Positions 20,387-59,279 of a DNA stretch of 64,000 bases are shown piece after piece. The notes beneath the pieces were generated by a model, which saw only the letters and a list, made by a program, of their open reading frames with translations, was not told the DNA's origin and did no database searches. A program made the position numbers and the translations under genes. The first letter of the stretch is position 1. Every line of letters starts with the position of its first letter. This DNA is from Magallana gigas (Eukaryota). The stretch spans positions 1,054,001 to 1,118,000 of the forward strand of contig NC_088854.1 of assembly GCF_963853765.1 (NCBI RefSeq). Direction: 5' to 3'.

Positions 20387-21967
20387 TTATGTTTTATCTC
20401 TGTCATATTCTAACTCAAACGATGCTTTTATCTTTTCTTTATTCGCCGTATCACAACATTCTATCCGGATGCTAGTCTGTCCAAAGTATATTTTTGTTGT
20501 ATGATCTACCCTGTCCGGCCAACCATTTTCAGGAGGCGTACTAACAACTTTTCCAATAGCTTTGAAACCTTCATCTGTTACAAAAGCCAACTGACCCCTT
20601 ACTACGTTCTTTGCTTGAAAGAGCTCATCCTTTAACGTAACAAATTTTCTATCCTCATTACGATGACTTGAATATGTCATATGAGTTCTCTCTTCTTCGT
20701 ACTTTACTAACTCATCTTTATACACCAAAACGCTGAAAACGTCATCGCATTTCTCTTCCTCGTCGACGATAATATGTTTGCTTTGAGGGTGTATCTTGCT
20801 ATCAAAATCCTCTAAAACGCTAAAACCGTATGTATATCTACAAATTCTTGCAGAGACTGCACGAGGATTGTATCCAAATAAAACGGCTCCTTTCAGGACC
20901 ACCGTGCCAGGTTCGTTGGGAGAGATGAATTTAATCGAAGAGAAAGCAGGGTTGTTTTTTATCTCGTCTGTCAAAAACTTAGAGCCTGAAAATCCCCCGA
21001 CCAAGATGATGAAATTGATTGTCCCTATTTCAACCAAAATGTTTTTGAGAATACCAATAATTTTATCTTTTGGAGTGGTAAAAAAACTCTTGAAATGATC
21101 ATTTTGAACATGCATGTGTGCTAATGTAAGTGTTTGCTTATGTTCCTTTTGAATCGCAGTGTTTGCAAACTGCATTAACCGCGCAGGTAGTTGAAGCCGA
21201 ATGTTCCCCTTCGTATTACTGCTGATTTGTCTTTTCTTTGCCTCGAATTCTCTCTCAAAATCTAAAGCATCTAAAGGAGCCAACTCCCACAAATTTTCAA
21301 AACATTCCTTGTTTTTGAAAAGTTCATTGACAAAATCCTTGAATTGGGCATCCACAATGGTCCCACCCCAATCGCCACCGCTGGCTTTATAGACCTCTGC
21401 CAACGTGCCATCTTCCATGATCTTATGAACAACTATGTCGATAGTACCTCCTGATGAAACAAAAATAATCGTTTTACTCTTATAAATATTTTTATACTAG
21501 TTTTCTCAATAGTTAATAAAACGTGTCAAACATGTCATGTTGACCTGTCTTTCAGTTCAAAATAAACATTGTTAAACCACTGCGTCTCACTCAGCGAATT
21601 AATATTTGTCCGATTTCGGCGGATTTTGGGAAAAACCAAAAAAGGTGTTCAACACAAATGGCTGGTTGCTACTTACAATTATACTGAGGTTACAGTTGTT
21701 GACTAGGATTCGGCCAATACTAGTATATGATTTATTGGAACTCGAGACTGAAATGTTGTACTCGGCCTTCAGCCTTTGGGCAACACATCTGTCTTCAAGT
21801 CCAACAAATCGTGTGTTGCACTCAATAAAGTAGCCCATATGATGAATCTATATTAACTTCTTGTTTAAACAATTGTAGAATTTAAAAGATAAGAAGAATA
21901 CCGATAATGCAAATCAATTAAAAGCAAAAGATTTTATCTAAAGTCTTTTCAGCGTCAGACAAACAGC

Positions 21968-22047
<80 letters not shown>

Positions 22048-23502
22048 AACTTGTTTAGTTCGAACACGGATATAGCGAGATCTCGGACATAGAAAAGTTT
22101 GTTCCTAGCAATATTTTTATCAAATCCTTCCATAAGTGTATGGATCTGACGATTTGAAATATAACGACTTCATGGATAATGATAATAGAGGTGTCAAATA
22201 ATGAAATTCAATACGTTTTATCATTTGAAGTTTCGGAGGAAAGCAGTTTATATAAAGAAGTTGCTATACTTATTTTAACGAATTCGTTTTACGGATACAG
22301 TTATAACAATTAAGGATGTTGTGAAACTAATAATCTGGTCCATGGGACTTTACCATGATCGACCGAGTACTGTTGCTAGATAGATATTAAACCATGCTTA
22401 AGAAAATGGAAATCTAGATCATCTAAATACACATTCCTACCTCCCATATCCAGGACCATGTACTTTGTTCCTGGTTCGAACGACTCTGTCAGCATTCGGT
22501 CCGGCAGGTTCTTACAATAAAGGGCTGCCGCTTCTGGTTCTAGCGCAAGGACAATCTGGTACTCTGCAATGTCTGCCTAGTTCAAACAGGTATGACAAAT
22601 TCAGTAGAAGTCTAAAGTTAATAAAGTTAATTCAAAAACGTTTCTTTATAAAGGTATCATTTTTGGATGCAATAAATTCACACACAGTTCCATAAAATCT
22701 ATTGTAAATTCATAAAATATTTTTATATCAGTCAAACTGTAAAATAAATTATAAATTCAAAGCATTTTCAATTTTTTTTTTTCAAACTAATTAAACAAAT
22801 TTGTTATAAGGTGAATGTGCATGCATGTACATTCTAAATAACTTACCTTGATTGCTGCCTTTCTCATAAACTCTTTGGCGGATTCCGACCAGATTGCAGG
22901 AACTGTAAACACATAAAGTACATTTTCAGGTTTGAATACCACTCCTCGGTTTTCGGCCGCATTTTCAAAATGAGTCTTTAGCGCCTTTATCGTGTGTACA
23001 AATATCACCATGGCAGGAAGTGATAGTTTTCCTCGATCGTCTTGTAATACAAATGCTTCTGTAATATTCTACAATTAACCAACATTAATGTCTTCTTTAC
23101 TTAATATTCTTCAATTTGATTCTTTATTTTTATTACTATCGTCAAAGCTGTTGCATTGTTTACCTTTTCATGATATAGTTTCATTTTAAAGTTTCGAAAT
23201 CTGTAGCATTTATTGTGAGTTTTTTCCTCCACCCTCTGAGCATAACGTTCTTCTGCCTCATAACCGAAAGAGTCGAAGGTTTGATCTTCATTCAACAGAA
23301 CAGTTGTAGGGGCCTTGGCCTTCGGGTCTAGAGTGGAATTCCCTGTCCATTCATTGAGATTGATCGTGTTTGTTTCAATTTCCTTTTTGTCACTGTAAGC
23401 ATACCCTGAGTAGCTCGTTCCTATGTCAAATGCTACTATTATATCCCATTTGTACTTCGAGGGAAACTCCGATACTTGAACTGGAAGCTTTCCTGTACCC
23501 AT
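20387..23502 (-). CDS. HSPA12: HSPA12-like atypical HSP70, copy A (~586 aa)
   Basis: Exons 23502-23164, 23068-22847, 22576-22441, 21450-20387. Motifs VAFDIGTSYSGYAYS, VFTVPAIWSESAKEFM, LALEPEAAALYC, VLDMGGGTIDI, SGGDWGG, ILVGGFSGS, VLKGAVLFG. No EEVD. Confidence 0.92.
21968..22045. repeat. (GATA)n microsatellite in intron 3 of copy A
   Basis: Direct reading, ~19 units. Confidence 0.95.
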
Positions 23503-24286
23503 CTTATCTTTGCAAATGTCTTTCAACTAAATATTAAGTTTTAGATACAATTATCTTGATTTTTTTAAAAAAATGAAGAAGAAAGAAATTGTGTAGCTTA
23601 TTGTTTTAATCACTGAACAGTTTAAAAAAGACGTGTGGACATAATGTATTCGAAAATTGAAATTTGTTTAATAAAACCTTGTTGAAACGAACATGTATGC
23701 TTCTTGTTGACAAAACAACACTACATGTATACTAGACAGTTGATTGTCAGTACCTTTGTAAACTTTTTTCCAAATGCAGAATACCAATTCTCAATTCTAC
23801 TAATACCAATTAGAATTTCAATATTATGTATAATCGTCATGTTTTTGTTTTTTGTTTTGTTTGTTAATAAACATGTTTTCTTATCTTTGTTCATACTGAT
23901 TAAACAGCACATTAAGCATCTTAAAATACAAATTTACTTACCTGTTATTAAGAAATTAATATATTTCACCTGCAATAGAGGTTTTATAAGTTCACAATGC
24001 GTGTTAGTGAACTTTGTCCTTATGAGATATTATCAGGTAGGAAAACGTTTGATATTGTAAATCTTTATCAGTATCACAACGCCATTAAATGTGTACAAGC
24101 AATTCAATTTGTCAAAATGAAAGTATAATGTACAAGAATCATACGTTATTATATGTAAACAAATATCAGTCTGAAAATTTGTAAAAGAAGATAAACTACA
24201 AGATTTCAAAAAAATAAACATGATTAACTTCACATTGTTAGTAGGCATGTGTAATCAACGTAAACATTTACAAATAACGAACATGC

Positions 24287-28124: not shown

Positions 28125-28201
28125 TTTACTAAATTATTATAATATTAATTTTCTTTTTTATTGGCAGTTTTGAACATTAATCTGTTCTATTGTTTTAATT
28201 T

Positions 28202-29520
28202 TCAGTCCAGGTTGACGTAATCTGTTATTCGCTGTATAGTAGTTTTCCAACCGTATGCAAATCTGTCCAAAGTAAATCTTGATTGTATAGTCTACTGTGT
28301 CTGGCCAACCATTTTCAAGATGCAAACAATTGTTCCAACAGATTTGATACTTTCGTCTGTAACAAAGACCAACAGACCCTTTACCTCATTCTTAGCTTGA
28401 GAGAACTCTTTTTAGCTTATCTGAGCTGAAAGCTCAAGTGAACTTTTCTGATCACATTTTGTCTGTCGTCCCTCTGTCTGTCCGTCTGTCTAAGAACTTT
28501 TCATATTTTCAACATCTTCTCAAAAACCACTGGGTCAATTTCAAACAAACTTAGCACAAAGCATCCCTATGCTAAGGGAATTCAAAATTGTGAAAATTAC
28601 TAATAATTTGGAATTATTAAAAAAAATTGAGACATTTTCAAAAATCTTCTCCTCACGAACCATGAGGCCAGGAAGACTGAAACTTTTGTGGAAGCATCCC
28701 CAGGTAGTGTCTATTCAAAGTTGTGAAAATCATGACTCCCGGGGGTAGGGTGGAGCCACAATGGGGGTTCAAATTTTTTTCATAAGAATATATAGAGTAA
28801 ATATTAAAAAATCTTCTTCTCAGAATCAGCCAAGAAATCTGAAATTTGTGTGGAAGCATATTCGGGGTAGCGTGAATTCAAAGTTGTGAAAATCATGAAC
28901 CTCGAAGGTAGGGAGGGGCAAAAATGGGGGGTAGACTTTTTACATAAGAATATTTAGAGTAAATCTTTAAAAAAATCCTCTTCTCAAGAACCATTTGGCC
29001 AGGAAAGCTGACAATTATATGGAAGCATCCTCAGGTAGTGAAGATTCAAAGTTGTGAAAATCGTGACTCCCGATGATATGGTGGAGCCGCAATTGGGTTT
29101 TTTCAATTTTGCATATGAATATATTGAATAAATCTTTAAATATCTTCTCAGAAAGCAACCAGCTATGAAAGCTGAAACTTATGTAGAAGCATCCTCAGGT
29201 AGTTTAGATTACCTCCATTGTGGCCGATCCTACTCCCGGGAGTCAACATTTTTACTACTTTGAATCTTTACTACCTGAGAATGCTTCCAAAAAAGTTTCA
29301 GCTTTCCTGGCCAAATGGTTCTTGAGCTTTCAGCTCAGGTGCGCTAAAAACTGCATTGACGTAAAAAAAATTCAGACTGCTGACTAGTTTTGAGAGAAAT
29401 TATCTTTAACTTCTCGCAGCGTCTACAGTTAAAGAGCTAAAGAAAGAAATCTTGTAGGATTAAAAACTGGCTATCACCAATATCACAGTTGCACGACTCC
29501 GGCATATTGTAATCCAAAAT
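28202..29520 (-). pseudogene. HSPA12: HSPA12 last-exon relic (psi1), split by a Helentron insertion
   Basis: Minus strand reads ...SMQ|KEFSQAKNEVKGLLVFVTDESIKSVGTIVC(fs)ENGWPDTVDYTIKIYFGQICIR...; the sequence rejoins in frame across the 28409-29350 insertion. Confidence 0.8.
28409..29350. mobile_element. Non-autonomous Helentron with Cg170-like satellite units; fold-back structure with two 3' termini
   Basis: Left end TTAGCTTATCTGAGCTGAAAGCTCAAG, then (CTGT)-type microsatellite and ~3.5 units of 166 bp. Orientation flips at ~29205; right end TTGAGCTTTCAGCTCAGGTGCGCTAA. Confidence 0.85.
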
Positions 29521-30604: not shown

Positions 30605-33600
30605 TCAGTCTAGCTCAAAGGATGCTTTTATCTGTTCCTTATTCGCTGTATCGTAGTTCTCTATCCGGATGCTGGTCTGTCCGAAGTATATCTTAGTTAT
30701 AAGGTCTACCCTGTCCGGCCAGCCATTTTCAGGGGGCATGCAAACAATTTGTCCTATAAACATGAAGCCCTCATCTGTAACAAAAGCCAACTGATCCTCT
30801 CTGACGTTCTTAGCTTGATAGAGCTCTATCGTTATTGAAACGAATTTTCTATTCTTGTTCCGATGACGCGAAATACTCTTAAAAGTCTTCTCTTCATTGT
30901 ACTTTACTATCTCATCTTTGTACGCTAAGACATGAAAAACATTTTTGCACATCTCCTTTCCGTCAATAATAGCGCGTTTTCTTTGAGGGTGTTTTTTGCT
31001 GTCAAAGGGCTCGAGAATACCTATGCCATAGGTATATCTACAGATTCTTGCCGAAACAGCACAGGGATTGTAACCAAAAATTACTGCACCTTTTAGGACC
31101 ACTGTACTACGCTCGGGGGGAGAGATGATCCGAATGTTAGAAAAAGCAAAATATTTTATTATTTCCTCTCTTAAAAATGTTGAGCACGAAAACCCTCCAA
31201 CCAACAAAATCAATTCAATTGCTCCTACTTCACCTATGATTTTTTCAATGATGCGAATTATTTCTTCTTTTGAAGTTTTAAAAAAACCTTGGAACTGTGT
31301 TTGGTCAACGTAAATGTGTTCCAATGTCATTGATTTGCCCTGATTTTGGATTTCTGTGTTTGCAAACATTTTTAATCGATTGGGAATCTGGAGTCGGATG
31401 TCATCCAGACTTGTATTACAGCTGATTTGTCTTTTCTTGGCTTCAAATTCTCTCTCAAAATCTAAAGCATCTCTAGGGGCTATCTCCCATAACTTATCAA
31501 TACACTCCTCATTCTTGAATAATCCAGTGACAAACGCTTTAAATTCGGCGTCAACAATATTTCCACCCCAGTCTCCACCGCTGGCTTTATAGACTTCCGC
31601 TAATGTCTTGTCCTCCATGATCTTGTGAACCACTATGTCAATGGTACCCCCTAAAATAACAGAGAATGTTACGGTGGTTGGCTTTATGTAAAACTAAAAT
31701 CAACACATATACAGATAAATGGCACCACAAAACCCAAAACAACTTTTTCAGCGACCTCAAAACTGTTTCATTGTTTAAAACATTGAGAATTTTTGCTGCT
31801 CATTAGAAGAACATATTTATCGACCCTGTTAATGTAACTCTAGTTTTTTTCGTATCCGGTTCTTTTTTTTTTACACAGCGTGATAAATTTCCCGTTATAG
31901 TTTTGGGCACATAAATGATTATTTAAGATGACATGTATTTCACTTAAAGTACATGTATAGTACAAGTATGGTGGCTTCAGTACAAATATATAGCTCGTAT
32001 TTTTCAAAAGGAGAGAAAACCATAAATATGTCAAAACACTTGGTGAAAATAGGCTTGCCGGACTGGGGATACTAATGCAATTTTTTCAACGATGTTCCAT
32101 GTTAGGACCAAAATTTTAATACTTATAATACTAATATTATTAAAATTTAAATTAGTATATTCTTTTAAGGGACTTTTAGATTATGTGTATTTGGAACATT
32201 TCAATTTTTTCCAATGTTTGCAGAAAAAAACTTGTGAAACTAAATCAAAGAATATGGGATAAGATATGTTAAACTAGCTGTTCAATATAAATATACATGT
32301 AAGTTGTTTTAACTGTTCAAATTTTTTTTTAAAAGTTTAATTGGACACAAATTTCTAAATGACCCGGTCTAACTTAACATGTATAGAGTAAATATCCATT
32401 GGTACGTAGAAATTTTGGTCATAATTTCATGGTTTGTTTGAAATGCATCTCTTTAGAATTTTCATAAGTTAATATAAATCATAGTTTTGTGACAGTGACA
32501 AAAATGTATGTATGGTATTTCATTGAAGATAATAAAGTGTTTTTGTCGTAATAAGGAATAACATTTTGTAAAAAGCATGCATATAAATAATGTTAAGGTA
32601 GCTTTTACATCAGTAAAGCAGATAGGTTGAATGGTTCTATTGGAAACCAAAATTTTATTTCAACAAATTAGTATGAATAATACATGAGTGTATATTTTTA
32701 ATATTTTAAAAGAAAGATAACTCTTGTGCGCTTGCTTCAATTGAAAGTATTTCATTTTATTTGTAACTGGGTCTAAATAACTTTGTAAAAGATTAAAAAT
32801 TTTCATTTAAAATTAAACATAAAAGTTGAGGTTGAGAACCAGACTGGTGTGTTGTGAGTTTCGGTATTTTAAGGTTTTCTGTTACGACCACTTGTATCCA
32901 AAATTTTTGGAGAGGTACTAGCTTTTAAAATCTATTTTAGTTGTATATTGCTATATGTTTTGCCAGATATTCTATCGTGTATGGAGTCTAAGTACTGATA
33001 CTTGTTTTCAGATAACTTTTATCGGTCATTATTATATAGTCATATATGATACATTGTCGTTTCTTTAAAATAGACTATAAATGTCACATATAATATTCAT
33101 TTTTGTCCCAAAAAAACCCCAACAAAACAAAAAACAAGAAACCCATGGGCAACATTGCTCACCTGAACAATAGACATCATAAAATCAGCTTTATAGAGTC
33201 ATACAAAAAAAAAATATGAGCAATGTAGTATAACAGATCCTGTGTTAAAAAATCAATTTTTTCCTGGACATTCTGTTTATAATTGGTCCCTTATTGTCAC
33301 AGTATAGTCATTTCACATATTTAACATTACAGTTCTCAAGAATATCTAAATTAAATGGGATATAAACCGATATCAAACTTGTGAAGCCCAAGAATTGCCA
33401 GGGGTCAACGTCTAAACAATTTTAAAGAATCACAATTATTTCAAAATGCTTGCATATAAGTAAAATCATACATTTAAGATAACATTTAAGATTTGGTAAA
33501 TTTGAAATATTTTCCTTTGTAAAATTGCGCCCCCGCCCCCCCCCCCCCCTCTCCCACGTGGCTCCACTCTACTCTTGAAAAATATGATTTTGACGAACTT

Positions 33601-35280
33601 GAATCTACACTATCTAGGTTGCTTTCACTAATCTCCCAAAACGTTTCCCCATTGTGCGCCTACCCTACCCCTGGGGAACATAATTCAACCAAATTTACCC
33701 TACACAAATTGCAGCTTTTCTAGTCAGTCGTGTTCTGGGTAAAAGATTAAAAATAAAATTTCTCTTTATATTCTCATGTAAAAATGTGACCCCCACCCTT
33801 TGTGACCCCACCTTACCCCCGGGGACCATGATTTTAACAAATTTAAATCTACACTATCTGAGGAGGCTTCCACACAAGTTTCAGTTTTTCTGGCCAAATG
33901 GGGTTAAGAAGAAGATTTTTAAAAATTAACTCTATATACTCCCATATAAAAATTCGCCCCTCCCCCCCCCCCCCATTTTTGCCCCACGTTACGCCCGGGG
34001 ACCATGATTTGAACAAACTTGAATCTAAACTATCTGAGGATGTTTTCACACAGGTTCAGCTTTTCTGGCCAAATGGTTTTTAAAGAAGACTTTTGAAAAA
34101 TTAAACCAAATTTTCAATAAATCCTAATTATATCTCCTTCAAATAGGGTGTGAACCTTTAATTAAAGATGCTTTGTGCCAAATTTAGTTGAAATTGGCCC
34201 ATTGGTTCAGGAGAATAAGTCGAAAATGTAAAACGTTTACCGACAGAGAGACGGACAGACGGACGGACGGGCGGACAGACGGACATCGGACAAAAAGTGA
34301 TCAGAAAAGCTCAATTGAGCTGTAGCTAAGGTGAGCTTATAAATAAATAAACTCATAACCTCCCATATCAAGGACCATGTACTTGGTTCCTGGTTCGAAT
34401 GCCGATGTAACCATATGTTTCTGTAGTTCCCTACAGTACAGTGCTGCCGCTTCCGGTTCTAGTGCTAGAAGAATCTGATACTCTGCTAAATCTGCCTAGT
34501 TAAAATAACATTTAATCAGATTTAGAAATGTTTATGATGTTTGTAAATTTATGTTATATTCGCTAAGTGGAGAATGATTTCACTAAAATTTTCGTTATTT
34601 ACTTGATAAAATACATTGTTTAATAACCTTAATGGCTGCCTTTCTCATGAACTGTTTTGCAGATTCGGACCAAATTGCAGGAACTGTCAAGACGTAAAGG
34701 ACATTTTTAGATTTGTACACTGATCCGCGTCTTTCTATAGTGTTTTGAAAGTGACCCTTTAACACCCTAATTATGTGTGCAAATATATCAATTGCTGGTA
34801 TCTTCCTTTTCCCTCCGTCCTCTTGTATCTCAAAAGTTTCATTGATGCTCTGTTATCAAATTAAAATATATCATATTGATTATAAAATTATGCTTCTTTT
34901 TTAATGGCAGCAAACTATTTTATTGTAAAACCTACCTTTTCGTGGTACAGTCTCATTTTGAAATTGCAAAATCTGTAGCATTTATGGTGCGTTTTATCCT
35001 GAACCATCTTAGCGTAATTTGCCTCTGCTTCATAACCAAAAGAGTTGAAGGATCTGTCTTCGTTCAGTAGGACGATGGAAGGGGCCTTGGCTGTTTTATC
35101 ATGACTAAAATTTCCTATCCATTCATTGAGATTGATCTTGTTTTCTTTGATCTGTTTTCTGTCACTGTATGCATACCCTGAGTAGCTTGTTCCTATGTCA
35201 AATGCTACTACAATATCCCAGTTGTAGTTGTCGGAAATATGTTCTGATACATATACTGGTAGCTTTTCTTGATCAGCCAT
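30605..35280 (-). CDS. HSPA12: HSPA12-like atypical HSP70, copy B (~582 aa)
   Basis: Exons 35280-34936, 34849-34628, 34495-34360, 31650-30605; same motifs and intron phases as copy A. Confidence 0.92.
33132..34339 (+). mobile_element. Non-autonomous Helentron with ~2.5 Cg170-like units, in intron 3 of copy B
   Basis: Start AAACAAGAAACCCATGGGCAACATTGCTCACCTGA; (GGAC)n near the end; terminus AAAAGCTCAATTGAGCTGTAGCTAAGGTGAGCT. Confidence 0.85.
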
Positions 35281-35440
35281 ATCGCTTTGGAAATAACATT
35301 TACACACTTTCACTGCTGCAAAAAATTGTTATTATAAGAATTCACTACTCAAGCATATAAGCAATTCAAAATTAAATTGAAATAATTGGTGTTGTTGAAA
35401 AAGAAAATAAGGTATGTAATACCTTAAAGTTTTGAAATAT

Positions 35441-35483
35441 GGGGTTTCCATAATAAACCGAAAACGAAAGTTAAATGACGTAA
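35441..35483. promoter_or_regulatory. kappaB-like + ISRE/IRF-E-like + CRE-like module upstream of HSPA12 copy B
   Basis: GGGGTTTCC (35441-35449), GAAAACGAAAGT (35460-35471), TGACGTAA (35476-35483). Confidence 0.6.
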
Positions 35484-36129
35484 AAATAAGTGATTTAAAG
35501 CTTGAACAATTATTAAACTTTACATGATGAAACAATAAAAAAAAATGACTAAAAAAAGTTCTTAAACATATGCGTAATAATTGACCTACATTTAAACTTC
35601 AAACAAAAATTACATAAAATAATGGCCACCATGATTAATATTTTGATTTTATGCATATGCACTAGCTATGACAACAACTTTTATTTTTACTTATTAATTC
35701 GTTGTACTACTTCGCTGTTTCTTATTTCTTGTTAAAAGACGTTCTAAATCTATACAAAATGATGGAACACCAACCTTAGACTATAAATCCACGTGCCAGC
35801 TAGGTCTCTTTAACAGCAGAATGACGTATTTAAACTGATAAAACGTGTTTGTTTGACATAATACCGAAAACTAAGGGGCATGGTCATGTTTGACCTGATA
35901 TTTTCAAATGTCTTTTCTTCTATTTTTACTCTTTCAACACTTTACTAATGTATTTCTTATGTGTAAGCCACTGTCAACTGCCGAGTAAAAGACAGAAATC
36001 AACCTCTGAATCCCAGTTGGGACTACACAAAAGGTGTTTGTGTATTGTCAATTCCACGTTTATGTTGACCACAAATTTTGTCAGTTATATTCTTTACCTT
36101 TCGAACATGCATTAAAATTTAAGATTAAA

Positions 36130-36132
<3 letters not shown>

Positions 36133-36168
<36 letters not shown>

Positions 36169-38432
36169 CGATAATAGGCATGATAAAATCAGCTTAATGT
36201 AGTCATAATAAAACAAGAGGCGCATGGGAAACATCGCTCACCTGAGCAACAATAGTCATAATAAAATCAGCTTCATGGAGTCATAATAAAAAATATCTGA
36301 ACAGTGTAGTATTATACATTTAGATCCTGTATGAAAAAATCAGTTTCCCCCTGAATATTCTTATATTTATCATCAAGTCCCTTTTCTAAACTGATGATTA
36401 TATTAGTCATATCACATTCAGCATTGCAGTTCTCAAAAGACCTTAAACAATTGTTTATATACAGGATATAAACCTACATCAAACTCTGAACCCCCTGTGA
36501 GGCCCAATAATCGTCCAGAGGCCAAAGTTTACACAATTTTAAAGAATTAGCAACATGTAAAAATGTTTGCATATAAGTAAAGGCGTTTATAATAACATTT
36601 CAGTTTTTGTGAATAATTAAAATGTTTTCCTTTGTACAACTGAATCCCCAATGTGGCCCCACCCTACTTCTAAAGATTTTGATTGACAGATATTCAAATC
36701 TACACTATCTGAAGTTGCTTTCACTAAAGATACACCTTTTCTACGCAATTGTTTGTTTGGATTGTTTTTTAAAATTGAAGGATTCTAAAGATTTACTCTA
36801 CATATTCCTATATAAAGAGTCGATCCCCAATGTGGCCCTACCCTACCTCCGGGGATCATGCTTTTCACAGCTTTGAATTTATACTACCCGACGATTCTTC
36901 CAAATAAGTTTCAGTTTTCCTGGCCTAACAGTTTCTGAGAAGAAGAATTTTAAAGATTTACTCTATATACAACTATGTTAAAATTCAACCCCCCATTGTG
37001 GACCCACCCTAATCCCGAGGGTCATGATTTTCACAACTTTGAATCTACACTATCTGAGGATGCTTCTACACAAGTATCAGCTTTCCTGGCCTAATGGTTT
37101 CTGAGAAGAAGAATTTTAAAGATTTACTCTATATATTCCTATGTAAAAAGTCGACTGCCACTGTGGCCCCTTCCTACCCCTCGGGGTTATGATTTTCACA
37201 ACTTTAAATCTACACTATCTGAGACTACTTCCACATAAGTTTCAGCTTTCCTGGCCAAATGGTTCTGAGAAGAAGATCTTAAAGATATACTCTATATATT
37301 CCTATGTTAAATTTTGACACCCATTGTGGCTCCAACCTACCCCCGAGGGTCATGATTTTTACAGCTTTGAATCTTCATTACCGGAGAATGCTTTCACATA
37401 AGGTTTATTTTTTCTAGCCAAATGGTTCTTAAAAAGATTTTTAAAGATTTACAAAATATACTTGTATGTTAAAATTCGACCCCCATTGTGGCCCCACTCC
37501 ACCCCGGCGGTCATGATTTTCACAACTTTGAATCTACACTACCTGAGAATGCTTCCACATAAGTTTCAGTTTTCTTGGCTTAACAGTTTCTGTGAAAGAG
37601 ATTTTTAAAGATTTACTCTATATATAACTATGTTAAAATTCACCCCCCCCCCCCCCCCACTGAGTCCCCATTCTATCTAACCCCGAGGGTCAGGATTTTC
37701 ATAACTTTGAATCTACACAATCTGAGGATGCTTCTACACAAGTGACAGCTTTCCTTGCCAAAAGGTTTCTGAGAGGAAAATTTTTGAAGCTTCACTCTAT
37801 ATATCCCTATGTAAAAAGTTAACTCCCATTGTGGCCTCACTCTACAACCGGGGGTCATGACTTTCATAACTTTGAATCTACACTATCTGAGACTGCTTCA
37901 GTATATGTAACAGCTTTCCTGGCCACATGGTTTTTAAGAAGAAGATTTTAAAGATATACTTTATATATTCCTATGTAAAATTCGACCCCACCCACCCCCC
38001 CCCCCCCCGCTATTGTGGTGCTACCCCACCCCCGGGGGTCATGATTTTCACAGCTTTGAATTTACACTACCTGAGGATTCTATATATTCCTATGTATAAA
38101 TTCGATCCCCCATAATATATTTATGGCCCATCCTACCCCCGGGGGTCATGATTTTCACAACTTTGAATTTACACTACCTGAGGATGCCTCCACACAAGTT
38201 TCAGCTTTCCTTTAAAATTTCCCGAAAATTTGTAATAATTCCTAGTTATCTGCCGTTATAAAAGCATGCGGTCCTTAATTTTCACAACTTTGAATCCCCT
38301 TAGCCTAAGGATGCTTTGTGCCAAGTTCGGGTTAAAACGGTCCAGTGGTTCTTGAGAAAATGTGAAAAGTTTACAGACAGACGGACAGACAGAAGGACGA
38401 CAGACAAAATGTGATCAGAATAGCTCACTTAA
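36133..38432 (+). mobile_element. Non-autonomous Helentron with duplicated 5' end and ~9-10 Cg170-like 166-bp units
   Basis: Two AAACAAGAGGC(C/G)CATGGG...ATCGCTCACCTGAGC starts (~36133, ~36211); satellite array ~36640-38210; (GACA/GGAC)n and GTGATCAGAATAGCTCACTT end. Confidence 0.9.
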
Positions 38433-39594
38433 CCTATTAGCTAGATACGCAAACAGGAAGGCGGTTTAATAATATCAAACCAAAGAGCCGTTTATATTAT
38501 AATTAGAGGAATTGGATAACATACTTCATAATAGTCACGAGACGAATGATGTTAAGTTGTCAAAAGAATTTGAAGATCTTTTGAAGTCAATTGAGTTCGT
38601 TTGAAGGGGTTGAATGAGCAAAAATAACTTGAAATACCAACAAATATGAAACTCTCAATTGTCTCAAAATCAGTCAAAAGAGAAAATGACTGAAAATATC
38701 AAAAGATTTGAACATGTATTAGGTTTTAAGCTCAATGCCCAGAATTGTATTTCTTCTAAAATAAAAAAATTAATAAAGACTTATCCAAAGTGACCAACAG
38801 AAATGAACATTACAATAGATCAATGCCGTTTGGTATTTGACAGGCTAACGTGGTTATGGCTAAAAGTGAAATAAACCTGTCCAGGCAATTGTTCCATACC
38901 TTAATGAAATAGAATTTATCATTTTAACCTATTGCAGTTTGCTTGGATGAACTATTCTTTAAGGAAGCAAAATGTATTTCTTACACTGGCAAGACAATAT
39001 AGGTTTGTGTGAAAATATAGATGACACTTTACATGTAAATTATTGACGGCTTAATAAATATTTAACTTTGGTCATTTTTTTTCATATCACTATGCAATTT
39101 TCATCGTTTTAAAAGTACCTTTACAAAATTTGACACAATCCAAATTGTCGTTGTCGTTTTATAATATCAAACAACAATTAATTGAAGATGAAATTAACGC
39201 GATTAAGGTGATATAACATAATTGAGGCAATAACATAGAATGTAATGAAAGACCCACTTCAATGTAAGTTGACTAAACCCTTGTTGATTTAACTTTTGTG
39301 TTACCCTTTACATCATTCATTTAATCATCTATATATATAAAATATGTTTAAAATATCGTATCCGAAAAAATGATAGGTTTTGTTTTACGTATTTCTTTCA
39401 TATGATATTTTCAAACATATTTGAAGATTTGAAAAGCCTAACAAAAAGGCTTTTTTATGAACTTTTCACTTAGATACTGATCACAAGAACGTAGAACTTT
39501 TATATGTTTGATACACATGAAGTATACAATAGCCCCCGTACACCCTTCCGTAAAGTCTCACATTACATAGTATTTTGTTGTAACGCTGTGGTAT

Positions 39595-42011
39595 TCAGTC
39601 TAACTCAAACGATGTCTTCATGGGTACTTTATTTGCCGTATCGCAGGTTTCTATCCGGATGTTAGTCTGACCGAAGTATATCTTAATTGTATAGTTTACG
39701 ATGTCTGGCCAACCATTTTCAGGGGGCTTGCAAACAATTTTTCCAACAGGTTTGAACCCTTCATCTGTAACAAAAGCCAACTGACCCTCTCTGACGTTCT
39801 TGGCTTCGTAAAGGATAATTTCTATTGAAACAAATTTCCTATCCTTGTTTCGATGTCGAGAAACTCCGGTATAACTTCTCTCTTCGTCGTACTTTATTAA
39901 GTCATTTTTGTACACCAAGGCATGAAAAACATCTTTGCATATCTCATCACCATCAATGATAACAAGTTTGCATTGAGGGTGAATCTTGCTCCCAAACGGC
40001 TTATTTACGCGCATACCGTATGAATAACGGCAGATTCTTGCCGAAACAGCACGAGGACTGTAGCCAAACTTCACAGCACCTTGAAGGACCACCGTACCCG
40101 GTTCGGGTGGAGAAATTACCTGAATGGTAGAAAAAGCAGGATGACTTCTTATGCTGTCTCTTAAAAACTCTGAGCATGAAAACCCTCCAACCATTATGAG
40201 GAACTCAACTGATTCTACTTCAGCAATGATGTTTTCAATGATATGAATTATTTTGTCTTTGGCAGTTTTAAAAAAACCTTGGAACTGTGTTTGGTCAACG
40301 TAAATGTGTTCCAATGTCATTGATTTGCCCTGATTTTGGATTTCTGTGTTTGCAAACATTTTTAATCGATTGGGAATCTGGAGTCGGATGTCATCCAGAC
40401 TTGTATTACAGCTGATTTGTCTTTTCTTGGCTTCAAATTCTCTCTCAAAATCTAAAGCATCTCTAGGGGCTATCTCCCATAACTTATCAATACACTCCTC
40501 ATTCTTGAATAATCCAGTGACAAACACCTTAAATTCGGCGTCAACAATAGTTCCACCCCAGTCTCCACCGCTGGCTTTATAGACTTCCGCTAATGTCTTG
40601 TCCTCCATGATCTTGTGAACCACTATGTCAATGGTACCCCCTAAAATAACAGAGAATGTTACACTTTTTAAATAACTAGCTTCATGTATAGATAAAAGTT
40701 TGTAGCTTACTACTGCAAACAAAAGCCCAAAACCACACAAAGCCCACTAGAACAAAACACCATTATTCATTGATATTGTAATGAAAGTCTAGAATAGATA
40801 TCAGTTGAAAGGATAGTTTGTGTTTAGAACTTATCTAATATTTATCTCTAATAGTGTCTAATCCATAATAATATACCATGAATGTTGTATATGTTACAAT
40901 CCATATTGTATTGGCGATAGTATTGTTTTTTTTTAATTCGGTCAGCTAGTTTGTTTTTATGCATTTTATTAAAACTTTACTGCGAGTCAAAAAATTGATC
41001 CTGAATTGTTGTACAAATACGAATATAAGAATATAAGAATATACATGTTTTTATTATATTTTTATCATATTTATGATCATTTAAGTTTCCTTACCTCCCA
41101 TATCGAGGACCATGTACTTGGTTCCTGGTTCGAACGCCAGTGTAAGCATATGATCCTGTAGTTCCCTACAGTACAGTGCTGCCGCTTCCGGTTCTAGTGC
41201 TAGAAGAATCTGATACTCTGCTATCTCTGCCTGTTTCAAATAACATTTAAATAGATATAGACGTCTTTTTTTTTACATATTAATAGTGTCTTATATGTTG
41301 ACACTCATTATCTTCCACATAATTAAATGATACATTTTTTATCAACCTTAATTGCGGCCTTTTTCATAAACTCCTTTGCAGATTCAGACCAAATTGCAGG
41401 AACCGTCAAGACGAAAAGGACATTTTCACATTTGTACACTGACCCGCAGCCCTTGGCAGCGATTTCAAAGTGACCTTTTAGCACTCTTATTATGTGTTCA
41501 AATATGTCAATAGCTGGCATGGACACACTCCCTGTGTCGTCTTGAATCTCAAACGTTTCAGTAATGTTCTATTACAAAAATACAACAACAAAAATAAAAA
41601 TAACAAATGATCAATGAATTACGATATCTTTCTAAAATGCCGGCAAACTATTATATATAGAAACGGTACCTTTTCATGGTAAAGTCTCATTTTAAAATTG
41701 CGAAATCTGTAGCATTTATGGTGCGTTTTATCTTTAACCATCTTAGCGTAATTTGCCTCTGCTTCATAACCAAAGGAGTTGAAGGATCTGTCTTCGTTCA
41801 GTAGGACGATGGAAGGGGCCTTGGCTGTTTTATCGTGACTAAAATTTCCTATCCATTCATTGAGATTGATCTTGTTTTCTTTGATCTGTTTTCTGTCACT
41901 GTATGCATACCCTGAGTAGCTTGTTCCTATGTCAATGGCTACTACAATATCCCAATTGTACATGGAGGAACATTCTGATACCTGAACCGGGATTTTTTCT
42001 TGACTCGCCAT
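39595..42011 (-). CDS. HSPA12: HSPA12-like atypical HSP70, copy C (~581 aa)
   Basis: Exons 42011-41670, 41568-41347, 41230-41095, 40640-39595; same motifs and phases. Confidence 0.92.
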
Positions 42012-42138
42012 ATTTCCTGTTGTTTTATTCTGCTGAAAAATGAATTGCTTTTATAAGAATATACTATTGTATCAAGATGTTAATCAAATAAATATGTTAC
42101 ATTGTTGGTAACGAAAAGCTCTTACAACACAAAAGTAT

Positions 42139-42169
42139 GGGATTTCCATATGGAATCGAAAATGAAAGT
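42139..42169. promoter_or_regulatory. kappaB-like + ISRE/IRF-E-like module upstream of HSPA12 copy C
   Basis: GGGATTTCC (42139-42147) and GAAAATGAAAGT (42158-42169); same 10-bp spacing as in copy B. Confidence 0.6.
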
Positions 42170-45014: not shown

Positions 45015-45160
45015 TCAGTCTCACTCAAAAGATTACATAATTTGTACTGTATTTGATGTCTCTTAGTTCTACTCAGTCCGAAGTACATTGTATATCTTGG
45101 TGGTATAGTCTACCCTGTTCGGCCAACAGTTTTCAGGAGGGAGCAAACATTTTTTTAATA
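45015..45160 (-). pseudogene. HSPA12: HSPA12 C-terminal relic (psi2)
   Basis: Minus reads PPENCWPNRVDYTTKIY, then a decayed FG..., ending tttgagtgagactga like the paralog stop context (FELD*). Confidence 0.7.
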
Positions 45161-50256: not shown

Positions 50257-53200
50257 TTAGTCTAGCTCAAAGGTTGACTTAATGTGTTCTTTATTCGCTG
50301 TTTCGTAGGTCTCTATCCGAATGCTAGTCTGTCCAAAGTAAATTTTGACTGTATAGTCTACCCTGTCCGGCCAACCACTATCAGGAGGCGTCCAAACAAT
50401 TTTTCCAATAGACTGAAACCCTTCATCGGTAACAAATGCCAACTGACCCTCTACCATGTTCTTAGTTTGATAAAGTTCAACCTTTTTTTTAACAAATTTT
50501 TGATCCTTGTTGCGATGAGTTGATTGTAAATTTTTCGTCCTCACTTCGTCATACTTTACTAACTCATCTTTGTTTACCAAGACATCAAAAACATCTATAC
50601 ACTTCTCATCGCCGTCAATATTAGCACGTTTTCCAAGAGGATGTATCTTGCTATCAAAGACTTCACAAACACCTATTCCGTAGGTATATCTACAAATTCT
50701 TGCCGTAACAGCACGAGGATAGTAGCCGAATAAAACGGCCCCCTGCAGGACAACTTTGTCAGGATCTTTTGGGGAGATAAACTTTATAGAAGAGAAACTG
50801 GGGTGGCGTTTTATCTCATTTCTTAGAAAATGTGAACATGAAAATCCCCCGACTAAGACGATAAAATCGATTGTTCCTACCTCTGCAAAAATGTTTTCAA
50901 TGGCACCAATAATTTTGTCCCTCGCTGTTTTGAAAAAGTCCCTGAATTCTTCATTTTGAACGTATATGTGTGCTAATGTGATTGATTCAATTTTTTTATC
51001 TCCGAATTCTATGTTTGCAAACATCTTTAACCGTTCAGGGAGCTTAAGTCGGATGTCGTCATCATCGTCATCGCCGATTTGTCTTTTCTTGGCTTCAAAC
51101 TCTCTTTCAAAATCTAAAGCATCTCTAGGAGCTACCTCCCATAGCTGGTTAATACATTGATCATTTTTAAATAAATTGTAGACGAAAGCTTTAAATTCTT
51201 TGTCAACGATAGTCCCTCCCCAGTCACCACCGCTGGCTTTATAGACTTCCGCTAGGGTACCGTCCTCCATGATTTTGTGAACCACTATATCTATGGTGCC
51301 CCCTAAAACAGAATATTGTAGGATATATAGTCTAGAAAACCCGACATAACTTATAACAGTGAATACTAGAATACAGGACGAGATGAAGGAAGTGGTGCTT
51401 AAATCAGATGAACTTAGTTATTATATGTGTAAAAAAAAATTCGAATAAACAAAGTAACAAAAAACTACACTAGGTGCGACATCCGAAAGTAAGACATCCA
51501 CCTATTATATAAAAAAAAGATTGCTATATGTGAATATAACAACATTATAATAGGAAAAATTGCTTATCTAATCGATCTCTAAGAAATTGAGTATAGGTCT
51601 TATAGATACACATCCCTACCTCCCATATCCAGGACCATGTACTTGGTTCCTGACTCGAACGAATATGTCTGCATTCGGTCCGGTAAAGTCTTACAATAGA
51701 GGGCTGCCGCCTCTGGCTCTAACGCAAGGAGAATCTGACACTCTGCTATCCCAGCCTAGTTAGATTTATTAAATCTATACATAGACATAATGCAAGTACT
51801 CATTTGAAATGGTAAATACACGTAAATGTACTACAATCATCTGTTTGAACAAAATATAATTCAAAATGTAAAAATATAGAGAAGATAACCTTCATTGCAG
51901 CCTTTTTCATGAACTCTTTGGCGGATTCGGACCAAATAGCAGGAACCGTCAAGACATAGAGGACTTCCTCAGGTTTGAATACCACTCCCCTGTCCTTGGC
52001 GGCCTCTTCAAAATGATCCTTAAGCGCCTTTATTGCGTGTTTAAATATATCTATTGCAGGTAGAGATATGCACTTTCTCTCGTCTTGTATCTCAAAAGTT
52101 TCCGTGACATTCTGTAAATTTCAAAAAATACACCCAACGAATGGTCACACATAGATTAGTTTTAAACAAGGTATTATATGTCTTTGTACCAACTTGCATC
52201 CATTTTAAGTTAATATTTTGATACTCATAGATATATTATTTCCCCTAAAATATAATTTGTAGGGTTTGTCGAACTGTCTAACTAAGTCGAACGTATGAGC
52301 TACTAAGTTGTGCAAAGGAATATTTAATCATAATAACGAGATTAAATGTCGTACATACGAGGTAAAACGCCATACGAACGAGATAGTTAGTGGTTATAAT
52401 GACATCAACTGATTCGTACTTACAAGATAATAAGTCGCTTAAACGAGATAAAATGTCGTACTTATTTATTTTTCATACATTTTATTCATTTTTTACTATA
52501 TAAAACATTAGTTGCGGGAATAAATGATCATGGCATAGGATTCACGTACTAAGCTAATTTTTATGGATCGAATCGTAACAAAGCGTAACGGGCTTTATGG
52601 GATTTGATCACTTGACCAACCCGTATTTATATCCTGATATAAATCCAAAAATGATACCCTATTTCTTAAATAAAGAGATAACATGTCATTCATATGAGAT
52701 ATAATATGTCTTAAATTCGATACAATAGTCAACAATTAGTCGTCTGTACGATATAATGTCATAAAAACAAGATATTAAGTCGTTATAATGAGATCCTTAG
52801 TTTTAAGTATGTACGAGATAATAAGTCGTTATGACTAGATACCGGTAATATGTCAGATTTTTATTAAAAATTATTATCTCGTTATAACGACTTGTAATCT
52901 CATTATAACGACTTAGTATCTCGTTGAAACAACGTATTATCTCGTCGACATATTACAACGACTTATTTATTTACGTACGTACAACATATTATCACGATTT
53001 AGAATCTCGTACGTACGACATATTATCTCGTTATAAGGACTTAATATCTAGTACGTACGACTTAGTTTATGTCATTTATACAATATTATCTCGTTTTATC
53101 GACTTATTATCTCGTAGGTACGACATAATATCTCGTACGTACGACATTTTATGTCGTACGTATGACAGATTATCTCGTACATACGACATTTTATCTCATA

Positions 53201-53903
53201 TGTACAACATATTATCTCATAATAGAGACTTAGAACTTCGTACGTACAACTTAAGTTAATATCTCCTATGTACGACTTCATTAAAAGATCATTTTAACTG
53301 GCAGCAATACGCTTCCGTAGTTCCGTCAGATTGAATGACGTACAATCATTTTTAAAAATATGTTACAAAAATATTTTATTTCATTTTTCATAAGGTAAAT
53401 TCCATTCAGTCTTTGATAATCATTTTACATTTCTGTCAATTTCCAGGTAATAAGAAAAAGAATCATAAACATTAAAATATTATTCATTCAAAAGATCTTC
53501 AATGATTAATATGTGTATTTTTTAAATGAATTCGAAAAGAAAAGGGGCAATAAATGATTACCTTTTCATGATACAGTTTCATCTTAAAGTCTCGGAATCT
53601 GTAATATTTAAGGTGAGTTTTGTCCTTAACCATCTTCGCGTAAAAATCCTCTGCTTTATAACCAAAAGAGTTGAACGATTTGTCTTCATTCAGCATCACA
53701 ACGGTCGGGCACTTGGCCTTTTTATCATGGGTAAAATTTCCACTCCATTCGTTTAGATTGATGTCTTCTCTCTTTATCTCTTTTTTGTCGCTGTAAGCAT
53801 ACCCCGAGTAGCTAGTTCCTACATCTAAGGCTACAACTATATCACATTTGTATCTCGAAAGATGGTCTGATGTCTGATCTGTGGGTTTTTCTTGATCCGC
53901 CAT
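50257..53903 (-). CDS. HSPA12: HSPA12-like atypical HSP70, copy D (~581 aa)
   Basis: Exons 53903-53562, 52111-51890, 51755-51620, 51302-50257; same motifs and phases. Confidence 0.92.
52300..53322. repeat. Opposed arrays of ~21-bp repeats (TATCTCGTACGTACGACATAT / reverse complement) in intron 1 of copy D; probable MITE remnant
   Basis: ACGAGATAA/AAGTCGT orientation at 52300-52830 and TTATCTCGT/ACGACTT orientation at 52870-53280. Confidence 0.7.
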
Positions 53904-54073: not shown

Positions 54074-54085
54074 GAAAACGAAAGT
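54074..54085. promoter_or_regulatory. ISRE/IRF-E-like motif upstream of HSPA12 copy D
   Basis: GAAAACGAAAGT, identical to the copy B motif, ~170 bp upstream of the ATG and preceded by a degenerate AGAATTTCT. Confidence 0.5.
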
Positions 54086-56947: not shown

Positions 56948-58101
56948 TCACAGAAAATCAAATTCAACTTTAACAGTCACATTATTAGTAATATCAAAGT
57001 CTTCTATTTTGATTTCAGTTTGTCCAAAGTAAACTTTAGTTTTGAATTCTACAAGGTTTGACCACCCTTCTTTAGGGGCATGACTTATGATTTTCCCTAA
57101 GGACTTAATGCCTTCCTCAGTAACATACACAGTTCTATCTCGGGGGATGTTTTTCCCAGCAAACAGTTCCTTCCTTATTGGAATATGCTTCCTATCAGCT
57201 TGTCTGTGACTGCTTTTGGAGGTGGCAAATTTTGGATCATCGAATTTGACTTTTTCTCCCTCGTATACTAGAACATCAAACACATCCTTGCAGACAACTT
57301 CACCATCAACCTTATCTCGCTTGTCCGCCCGATGTATGGATTCATCGAAGTCTTGCAGAACACCGAACCCGAAGGTATACCGACAGATCCTGTACCGAAC
57401 ATCTTCTGGGTTGTACCCAAACAACACTGCTCCTTGAAGCACGGCAAGACCAGGTTCTTTTGGGCAACAAATATCGATGCCGGAAATGTCACTGTGGCTC
57501 TTAAGTTGATCGTAAAGATATCGAGAACTGGAGAACCCCCCGACCAGGATGATTTGGTCCAATCGCCCCACCTCATTCAAAATGTCTTTTATCAGCGATA
57601 TAATTCGGTTTTTGGGATTCTCAAAGAATTCCTTAAATTTAGGATACTGAACGTATATATGGTCGAACGTTATTGATGACGTCACAGGCACCTTCCCGAC
57701 CTGTTGTAACCGCGCGGGTAACTTCAGACGAATGTCGGCAGCCTTGTTGCTGATCTGTCTTTTCTGCATTTCGAACTCCCTCTCTAAATCATAGGCGTCC
57801 CTTGGAGATAAATTCCATAGCTCTTTTAAACACGTTTCGCTGTTGAATATATTTTGAATATATCTTTCAAACTCGCGATCTACCATCGTTCCGCCCCAAT
57901 CACCTCCAGACGCTTTATAAACTTCCGCCAGGCCGCCATCTTCTAACACGTCATGCACAACAACATCGACTGTTCCACCTTTAAAAAGACACATAATACA
58001 AATATCACTTATATCTTGTGTCGCTCCCAATAGAGGTATTCTCACACAACAAAATAAATAATGTACACTAATTATGCGGAAACAAATTGTGTCAATGTTA
58101 T

Positions 58102-58140
<39 letters not shown>

Positions 58141-59279
58141 TCACCGCCCAGATCCAGCACCATGTACCGTTTGTATGGTTTGAACGTGTCCGTCAATGTT
58201 TGTTCCGGAAGTGATTTACAGTACATTGCGGCAGCTTCCGGTTCCAAAGCAATCAGAAGCTGGGCCTCTGGAATTCCGGCCTATCAGAATTTTTTACCGT
58301 TCATAGTGATACTTATAATATTTCAGGAGATCGAGGAGTATAGATAATACAAAGGCAAGAATTATTTAAAGTTACCATATCTGTGCTTTCATGTGTATAG
58401 ATCGAATCAATGTTTAAAAACTAATCTTGTTTTTGGCACAATTTTGTCATTTGTTCTTCCCTACTCGAGTACGGTTTTGACACAAGAATCATGATATAAA
58501 AATTGGACACATCCATTTAATTCATATAGAGTATGTATAAATTTTAGCTCAATCGTCAGACATAAGGTTATTAATATGAATTCTTAACCAGAGATGCAAG
58601 TTTTATTTTTTATAACATGTACCTGCATTGCAGCTTCCTTCATTAAAAGTTTTGCCGACTGTTTCCAAATTGCGGGAACTGTGACGACATAGAGAACATT
58701 GCCCGAATCAAACTGCAGCGCCCTCTCCCTGACGGTGTTCTCAAAGTGGGATTTGAGGGATTTGATGGTCTGAGAAAACACCTCTGACGCAAGCAAGGAC
58801 GCTCTTCCAGAGTCATCCGAAATTTTCAAATCTCGGTGTACATTCTGTAAAAGAGATATACAAAATAATCGGACTGTCACTCAAGCGAAATGTTTAAACA
58901 TGGACTGAACGAACTAAATCATACTAACCTTTTCCCGGTATAAAACCATTTTAAAATTTTTGAATCTATACCAATCGTCGTTTTTCTTCTCACAGACTTG
59001 AGTAGCGTAGAAATCCTCTGCTTCATAACCAAACGAATGAAATCTCATGTTTTTGTCGAACAGCACAGTCGTTGGGGCTTTAGCCTTAGGGTCCGACACC
59101 ATATTCCCCGTCCATTGGTTGAAGGAGACAGACTTGAGGTCCATTTCTTTTCTGTCGCTGTAGGCGTACCCCGAGTAGCTGGTCCCGATGTCAAAGGCCG
59201 CCACTATGTCCCACGTGTGTCGGGGGGACCGCTCGGACACCTGTATCGGGTACTTTACTTCCGTTTTCTCTGTGCCCAT
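56948..59279 (-). CDS. HSPA12: HSPA12-like atypical HSP70, copy E (~579 aa), the most divergent copy
   Basis: Exons 59279-58929, 58844-58623, 58280-58145, 57978-56948. Motifs AAFDIGTSYSG, TVPAIWKQSAK, IALEPEAAAMYC, VLDLGGGTVD, ILVGGFSSS. Confidence 0.92.
58103..58137. repeat. (CT)n microsatellite in intron 3 of copy E
   Basis: Direct reading. Confidence 0.95.

What the first reader, a model, noticed from the sequence alone, without database searches (positions are those of the whole stretch)
35441..35483. Interferon-enhanceosome-like module (CRE - ISRE - kappaB) in front of HSPA12 paralogs: HSPA12 array as a candidate antiviral/immune-inducible system
Seen: copy B has GGGGTTTCC, a 10-bp gap, GAAAACGAAAGT, then TGACGTAA. 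Copy C has GGGATTTCC, the same 10-bp gap, then GAAAATGAAAGT (42139-42169). Copy D keeps GAAAACGAAAGT with a decayed kappaB (54062-54085). Copy A has only partial forms (GAAAATTGAAAT at 23652; CAAAATGAAAGT at 24113). In B, C and D the ISRE lies 147-180 bp upstream of the ATG, while the surrounding AT-rich sequence has visibly diverged. Established: GAAANNGAAA(G/C)T is the IRF-E/ISRE consensus, GGGRNTTCC is a Rel site, and the IFN-beta enhancer has the order ATF/Jun-IRF-NF-kappaB towards the gene, the same order as copy B on its coding strand; oysters have IRF and Rel pathways. Inference: these HSPA12s are wired as IRF/Rel-induced immune genes rather than heat-shock genes. I saw no clear nGAAn heat-shock element array near them. 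The module may lie in a 5'-UTR intron rather than the promoter.
Basis: partly seen in the sequence, partly recalled or inferred. Interest (0 to 1): 0.8.

Follow-up and report, generated by a model that had tools for sequence, protein, structure and literature searches.

The report
Interferon-type switch in oyster HSPA12 introns
Three tandem copies of an oyster Hsp70-like gene (HSPA12) keep a binding site for antiviral IRF transcription factors in their first intron, which suggests that part of this large gene family, usually filed under heat stress, is also switched on by infection; the claimed three-part interferon enhanceosome is not supported.

Summary
The motifs are at the stated coordinates. 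They lie in the 5'-UTR intron of minus-strand Pacific oyster HSPA12 genes, not in the promoter (splice signals; no reads over the module; one read ends at the predicted donor). Only the IRF-type site (ISRE) holds up. It is the sole 12-mer shared exactly by the B and D introns, although their fourfold-degenerate sites are only 53% identical, and it sits 125-144 bp from the acceptor in A-D. Family-wide, 21 of 121 HSPA12 first-exon loci carry an ISRE within 700 bp upstream, against 5 of 109 Ras/GPCR controls (p=0.003). kappaB, CRE and heat-shock elements are not enriched. The kappaB site is kept only in young copies B and C, the CRE only in B, and there are two IRF cores rather than four. A published poly(I:C) table lists 57 HSPA12 genes, 51 modestly up-regulated, but B-D could not be mapped to it, 23 of 42 'sustained' genes were also sustained in seawater controls, and two are also listed as heat-responsive elsewhere. 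Verdict: probably a real IRF-responsive intronic enhancer of ordinary ISG type. Binding, induction and antiviral action are untested.

The parts
35441..35449 (+). Rel/kappaB-like 9-mer, copy B
   Evidence: homologous site in C only; a kappaB pattern arises in 0.3% of shuffled introns
35460..35471 (+). ISRE/IRF-E (two GAAA cores), copy B; with the C at 35459 it matches CGAAANYGAAAGT
35476..35483 (+). CRE-like octamer, copy B only; probably incidental
   Evidence: absent in C, D and A; no family enrichment
35316..35774 (-). 5'-UTR intron 1 of copy B, which holds the module
   Evidence: GT..AG ends; zero RNA depth over 35360-35719
35775..35800 (-). 3' end of non-coding exon 1 of copy B (transcription start not mapped)
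   Evidence: depth equal to one read of run X23 ending at the predicted donor
30605..35280 (-). HSPA12 copy B, four coding exons
   Evidence: joint 34494/34627 seen in reads; last exon held by 20 of 24 listed runs, 2 of them on record as RNA
42139..42147 (+). kappaB-like 9-mer, copy C
42158..42169 (+). ISRE, copy C, in predicted intron 42033-42488
39595..42011 (-). HSPA12 copy C
54074..54085 (+). ISRE, copy D, identical to B, in predicted intron 53947-54438
50257..53903 (-). HSPA12 copy D
23652..23663 (+). decayed ISRE at the homologous place in copy A (125 bp from the acceptor; predicted intron 23527-23941)
20387..23502 (-). HSPA12 copy A
   Evidence: [quoted passage not shown]
56948..59279 (-). 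HSPA12 copy E, the oldest paralog (48-53% amino-acid identity), no ISRE

Best explanation
The conserved part is one IRF-binding site (ISRE type) in the first, non-coding intron, about 300-350 bp downstream of exon 1. It was present in the ancestor of copies A-D, kept by selection in B, C and D, and decayed in A. Inferred mechanism: dsRNA or LPS sensing activates and induces oyster IRF1-family factors; an IRF dimer binds the two GAAA cores and acts as a promoter-proximal intronic enhancer, giving a slow, modest (about 1.3-5-fold) rise in HSPA12 transcription. In B and C a Rel dimer at the kappaB site one helical turn away may add to this. A minority of the HSPA12 family (about one locus in six, at several places in the tree) is wired the same way, in addition to and not instead of other stress inputs. 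Shown: sequence, position, conservation beyond paralog age, family enrichment. Taken from papers: oyster IRF1 binds ISRE, and many HSPA12 genes rise after poly(I:C). Inferred: binding at this site, induction of B-D, Rel cooperation, any antiviral action of the protein.
For: Sole exact 12-mer shared by the B and D introns at fourfold-site identity 0.53. Constant distance to the acceptor: 125, 144, 125 and 127 bp in A-D. The single B-C changes in the ISRE and in the kappaB site fall on degenerate positions. Family: ISRE within 700 bp in 21 of 121 HSPA12 loci, against 6 of 121 at 700-1400 bp, 6 of 121 for the reversed pattern, 2 of 39 Ras and 3 of 70 GPCR loci. Fisher p=0.003; about 14 of 84 against 3 of 97 after taking one locus per upstream-similarity cluster, p=0.002; 18 of 116 without this window's genes, p=0.008. 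Sites occur in both orientations (10 and 11). A quick tree of 108 of the 121 loci needs 14 changes of the label. CGAAANYGAAAGT occurs 1110 times against 326 for the reversed string. The viperin locus has a site matching C's over 19 of 20 letters, and an IRF gene has one abutting a kappaB site. Supplement S5A of PMC7064767 lists 57 HSPA12-annotated genes: 42 sustained, 10 priming-specific, 4 not regulated, 1 challenge-specific; 51 of the 52 regulated by priming go up. CgIRF1 is reported to bind ISRE (passages of PMC13524488).
Against: No binding or expression data for B, C or D; the CGI ids could not be tied to these copies. My positive controls were inconclusive: 0 of 4 IRF and 0 of 12 IFI27-family anchors have an ISRE within 700 bp (the anchors are not transcription starts), and 5 sites in 48,210 bases around 10 ISG-type loci is not clearly above the 2.6 expected. 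100 of 121 family loci lack a proximal site. 23 of the 42 'sustained' genes are also sustained in seawater-injected controls, and fold changes (log2 mostly 0.3-2.5) are below viperin's 2.4-3.4. That table was selected through enriched GO categories, so it gives no family-level rate. The 13-mer was defined after seeing the hits, so its 5 of 121 against 0.17 expected is circular. Controls are less AT-rich (0.63-0.67 against 0.68) and are only two families. Part of the genome-wide motif excess may come from repeats, as it did for another pattern.
Confidence: 0.6

Rival explanations
1. Neutral carry-over: a chance ISRE-like string in the ancestral AT-rich intron survived by luck or by a short gene-conversion tract; it does nothing.
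For: B and C are young (fourfold identity 0.76) and the module is not their best-kept block. Some shared 12-mer arises in 10-21% of shuffles. The loose pattern occurs once per 18 kb (30,840 matches). The first stage scanned many motifs and windows.
Against: The one B-D 12-mer kept is the one matching a consensus defined beforehand (about 1% per shuffled intron; about 0.002 to be kept). The enrichment holds without this window's genes.
Confidence: 0.15
2. A real protein-binding site, but not for inducible antiviral control: a constitutive or repressive IRF (IRF2-like), or another GAAAG-binding factor such as Blimp-1 (recalled, not from a call), setting tissue expression.
For: Sequence alone cannot separate IRF activators from repressors. 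Published inductions are small and overlap with injection controls. The family's expression is reported as tissue-specific (abstract of PMC11268181).
Against: The kappaB neighbour in B and C, the near-identical site at viperin and the poly(I:C) response of many family members fit inducible use. The recalled Blimp-1 consensus has AG(T/C) before GAAAG, which B, C and D lack.
Confidence: 0.13
3. A splicing element: on the pre-mRNA the site reads as a pyrimidine tract with a branch-point-like TTAAC in B, serving an alternative 3' splice site.
For: The first AG follows the site at 39, 37, 37 and 5 nt in A-D, and the distance to the acceptor is constant.
Against: No reads in 35360-35719 (only 27 reads laid in the best run). 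Family sites lie on both strands. A central CG is kept in B and D, which a pyrimidine tract does not need.
Confidence: 0.07
4. A true three-factor enhanceosome (ATF/Jun-IRF-Rel) as at IFN-beta, giving all-or-none virus induction.
For: The order CRE-ISRE-kappaB towards the ATG in B; the 10-bp ISRE-kappaB gap is kept in B and C.
Against: CRE in 1 of 4 copies; kappaB in 2 of 4; two IRF cores, not four overlapping ones; intronic; the strict composite recurs nowhere else in the genome; no family enrichment of kappaB (5 of 121 against 4 of 109) or CRE (8 of 121 against 10 of 109).
Confidence: 0.05

Closest known systems
ISRE / IRF-E enhancers of interferon-stimulated genes (two or more GAAA cores), including ISRE plus kappaB composite enhancers
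   Same: Two GAAA cores at 6-bp spacing, as defined in passages of PMC7819612; promoter-proximal; kappaB neighbour in B and C. That CXCL10, CCL5 and MHC class I use ISRE-kappaB pairs is recalled.
   Different: Invertebrate host without interferon; target is an atypical Hsp70; the site is in the 5'-UTR intron; binding untested.
IFN-beta enhanceosome (PRD IV-III-I-II)
   Same: Order of element types towards the coding region in copy B.
   Different: Two instead of four overlapping IRF elements, spaced rather than overlapping sites, CRE not conserved, downstream of the transcription start.
Expanded bivalve HSPA12 (Hsp70-12) family
   Same: Copies A-E are members by sequence; tandem duplication is known (89 HSPA12 of 113 HSP70 in this species, passages of PMC11268181).
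   Different: That paper discusses environmental stress and has no occurrence of 'promoter', 'cis' or 'virus' in its main text; the IRF-site enrichment is added here.
Immune-induced HSP12-type gene of the coral Acropora millepora
   Same: [quoted passage not shown]
   Different: No cis-element was seen in the passages read; orthology to the oyster copies not tested.

Membership tests
IFN-beta-type enhanceosome | Four overlapping IRF elements | tested here: not met
   two GAAA cores in B, C and D, at most a weak third half-site; definition
IFN-beta-type enhanceosome | Conserved ATF2/c-Jun site | tested here: not met
   CRE in B only
IFN-beta-type enhanceosome | Overlapping or abutting sites upstream of the transcription start | tested here: not met
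   10-bp gap; inside intron 1
IFN-beta-type enhanceosome | Order ATF-IRF-NF-kappaB towards the gene | tested here: met
   copy B only
IFN-beta-type enhanceosome | Cooperative assembly that depends on spacing | not testable with these tools
   needs reporters or binding assays
ISRE / IRF-E element | Two GAAA cores in consensus spacing | tested here: met
   definition
ISRE / IRF-E element | Conservation beyond neutral sequence | tested here: met
   B-D comparison; not shown by B-C alone
ISRE / IRF-E element | Same motif near known oyster ISG-type genes | tested here: inconclusive
   viperin and an IRF gene carry close matches, but 5 sites against 2.6 expected overall
ISRE / IRF-E element | Bound by IRF and needed for induction | not testable with these tools
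   no ChIP or reporter data
Interferon-stimulated-type gene | Induced by dsRNA or virus | tested here: inconclusive
   family-level yes; copies B-D not mappable; run conditions are coded
HSPA12 (Hsp70-12) | Actin-like ATPase phosphate motifs and best hits named HSPA12 | tested here: met
   D[IV]GT and DxGGG motifs in A-E; named hits; Pfam HSP70 on the full-length copy A protein, none on the two single exons of B tested
HSF-driven heat-shock gene | Triple nGAAn element near the start | tested here: not met
   none in 900 bp upstream of the five predicted donors; 0 of 121 family loci within 700 bp, 5 of 121 at 700-1400 bp; no heat-shock positive control was run

The most novel reading that the evidence does not exclude
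The bivalve HSPA12 expansion is largely an expansion of immune effectors: IRF sites were gained or kept repeatedly across the family, and these atypical Hsp70 ATPases act as ISG-like antiviral or antimicrobial proteins, a role that may be as old as cnidarians.
Probability: 0.25. Interest if true: 0.8.

Novelty: new member of a known kind. Interest (0 to 1): 0.5.

Why it matters
Why bivalves carry about a hundred HSPA12 genes, and what these proteins do, is open; the usual answer is intertidal stress. A conserved IRF site and a roughly four-fold family enrichment give a specific, cheap test of an immune role, with built-in controls (B, C and D have the site, A has a decayed one, E has none). 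It would also supply native oyster IRF target sites. I found no paper on IRF sites at mollusc HSPA12 genes in the search listings (Creative Commons library only). The poly(I:C) paper never mentions heat-shock proteins in its main text, although its table lists 57.

Tried and rejected
(1) Mapping copies A-D to CGI ids for paralog-level poly(I:C) data: cluster look-up gave only UniProt and RefSeq ids; a paper search and two supplement searches for them found nothing; 1 of 3 published primers mapped, to another family locus, L050, which is poly(I:C)-sustained and has a weak ISRE at -802. (2) RNA reads were too sparse for a transcription start: 1, 27 and 4 reads in three raw runs, 3 contigs in one. 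(3) An IFN-beta-like abutting ISRE-then-kappaB string occurs 8 times against 0 for the control, but 5 of the 8 are copies of one interspersed repeat, so I rejected it as a genome-wide grammar. (4) Two further control families (PF07534 as an ISG-type positive, PF00106 as a negative) returned no answer, so controls rest on Ras and GPCR loci. (5) The careful tree did not finish; the quick tree has 47 of 102 inner branches open, and 13 of 121 loci were left out for stops or short length. (6) GAS, kappaB, CRE and HSE patterns show no proximal enrichment. (7) B-C conservation as evidence was rejected. (8) One of the 21 family sites (L043) lies in a stretch shared with unrelated loci and is probably repeat-borne. 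No orthologs from other oyster genomes were available. Supplements of other OsHV-1 studies, which I did not see, may hold paralog-level data.

Full report
What is there. The window holds five HSPA12 (atypical Hsp70) genes on the minus strand, with ATGs at 23502 (A), 35280 (B), 42011 (C), 53903 (D) and 59279 (E), plus fragments. Named relatives place it in the Pacific oyster Magallana gigas: copy A matches a protein so named at 94-100% per exon. A search of the genome with B's first coding exon finds 121 family matches, a lower bound.

Position. Each of A-D has a donor 440-540 bp and an acceptor 24-43 bp upstream of the ATG, giving 5'-UTR introns of 415-492 bp. Reads laid on 34340-36120 were few (1, 27 and 4 in three raw runs). 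In the best run, depth is zero over 35360-35719 and equals one read of about 26 bases starting at 35775, the predicted exon end. The module is therefore intronic, 303 bp from the donor and 144 bp from the acceptor in B. The homologous sites lie 125, 127 and 125 bp from the acceptor in C, D and A. The transcription start was not mapped, and an inducible start inside the intron is not excluded.

Which part is conserved. Without assuming any motif, the ISRE is the only exact 12-mer shared by the B and D introns and the only site with 12-mers within one mismatch in B, C and D. B and D are old duplicates (fourfold sites 53% identical, 107 sites), so ten consensus letters would survive with p about 0.002. 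A dinucleotide-shuffled intron has an ISRE about 1% of the time. Against this, any shared 12-mer appears in 10% (B-D exact) to 21% (three-way) of shuffles, and between the young pair B and C the module (25 of 31) is no better kept than another block (26 of 31) in a 71% identical intron. The kappaB site is in B and C only. D's counterpart is 3 of 9 letters off and 3 bp away. The CRE is in B only. The strict kappaB-gap-ISRE string has two hits in the genome, B and C.

Family test. I took upstream DNA for all 121 matches and for 39 Ras and 70 GPCR first-domain exons as controls (these are 39 of 155 and 70 of 143 matches, chosen as top-ranked rows that start near the domain's beginning). An ISRE (GAAA, one or two bases, GAAA, S, Y) lies within 700 bp in 21 of 121 HSPA12 loci, against 6 of 121 further up, 6 of 121 for the reversed pattern and 5 of 109 controls; the genome rate predicts 3.8%. 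Fisher p is 0.003; about 14 of 84 against 3 of 97 after clustering similar upstream regions (p=0.002); 0.008 without this window. Sites are on both strands, and a quick tree of 108 loci needs 14 changes, at least 4 forced by well-supported branches. kappaB (5 of 121 against 4 of 109), CRE (8 against 10) and triple HSE (0 against 1) are not enriched. Positive controls were inconclusive overall (0 of 4 IRF and 0 of 12 IFI27 anchors; 5 sites against 2.6 expected in wider stretches), although viperin and one IRF gene carry close matches. The 13-mer CGAAANYGAAAGT is 3.4 times commoner than its reverse (1110 against 326), but it was chosen after the fact and repeats may contribute.

Published data. 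In supplement S5A of PMC7064767 (rows seen in full; sections 8 and 9 read) 57 rows are HSPA12-annotated: 42 sustained and 10 priming-specific after poly(I:C), 4 not regulated, 1 challenge-specific. One of the 52 goes down. Changes are mostly log2 0.3-2.5 against viperin's 2.4-3.4; 23 of the 42 are also sustained in seawater controls; and the list was built from enriched GO categories, so no rate can be drawn. The main text has no occurrence of 'heat shock' or 'HSP'. PMC11268181 (abstract, passages, section 10) reports both up- and down-regulated HSP70 genes under heat. PMC8303352 (passages) lists as heat-responsive two genes that are also poly(I:C)-sustained. PMC3723955 (passage) reports a coral HSP12-type gene as the top response to poly(I:C) and MDP. 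PMC13524488, PMC5869526 and PMC7819612 (passages) report that oyster IRFs bind or activate ISRE. PMC7411613 (passages) defines the enhanceosome. PMC8476169 (passages) reports IRF-motif enrichment at poly(I:C)-induced genes of a sea anemone and has no HSPA12 mention. PMC7848083 was searched in its supplement only.

How it probably works. An IRF1-family dimer, activated downstream of dsRNA or LPS sensing, binds the intronic site and raises transcription modestly, with possible help from Rel in B and C (confidence 0.6). Rivals are neutral survival (0.15), a constitutive or repressive GAAA-binding factor (0.13), a splicing element (0.07) and a true enhanceosome (0.05). It works like the ISRE or ISRE-kappaB enhancer of an ordinary interferon-stimulated gene. 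It fails the enhanceosome membership tests that could be run (four IRF elements, conserved ATF site, abutting upstream sites).

Verdict. Observation partly confirmed, interpretation partly supported. The element is a new member of a known kind. What is new is the sequence evidence that a subset of the expanded oyster HSPA12 family is wired to IRF, which makes the immune reading of that expansion testable. Earlier findings of this scan on fungal HSPA12-type arrays were not tested and are not used as support. Interest 0.5.

Noticed in passing
L270 (G000:C3:46562952-46562973): About 4.5 kb upstream of the first coding exon of an IRF gene, an ISRE abuts a kappaB site and a second kappaB-like site lies about 35 bp further on. 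This is closer to the IFN-beta PRDI-PRDII junction than the HSPA12 module and is not part of the repeat that explains 5 similar hits.
   Followed up: partly
L268 (G000:C7 near 18839437): The viperin locus has a tandem run of GAAA cores; its first site matches copy C's site over 19 of 20 letters.
   Followed up: partly
L278, L279, L280, L281, L284: An interspersed repeat of about 450 bp (72-92% identity between copies) carries an ISRE-like string next to a kappaB site and could spread such modules.
   Followed up: partly
L283 (G000:C9:31658853-31658882) and L282 (G000:C8:38235132-38235156): Two further single-copy ISRE plus kappaB composites; neighbouring genes not identified.
   Followed up: no
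L006-L012, L015, L016, L024, L118 (G000:C7 about 2.44-2.68 Mb): HSPA12 first exons lie in divergent pairs about 500 bp apart, repeated several times; L006, L011 and L118 carry an ISRE-type site outside the 700-bp upstream window.
   Followed up: no
G000:C1:44.68-44.76 Mb (L252-L257, L155): A cluster of IFI27/ISG12-family genes lies about 40 kb from an IRF gene.
   Followed up: no
window 45000-47412 and 28197-28411 (-): Broken HSPA12 last-exon fragments; an RVT_1 retroelement remnant at 48229-49696 lies between D and the larger fragment.
   Followed up: partly
window 28400-29330, 33100-34340, 36130-38450: Arrays of a roughly 165-bp repeat flank copy B and lie inside its long intron; they could have seeded the B/C duplication.
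   Followed up: no
window 8163-15100 (+): Exons of an Ig-domain receptor tyrosine kinase-like gene, with a 15-bp coding-like tandem repeat at 10290-11100; the ISRE match at 15079 looks coding.
   Followed up: partly
window 24113-24124: A one-core ISRE-like string upstream of copy A's predicted first exon could be a turnover site replacing the decayed intronic one.
   Followed up: no
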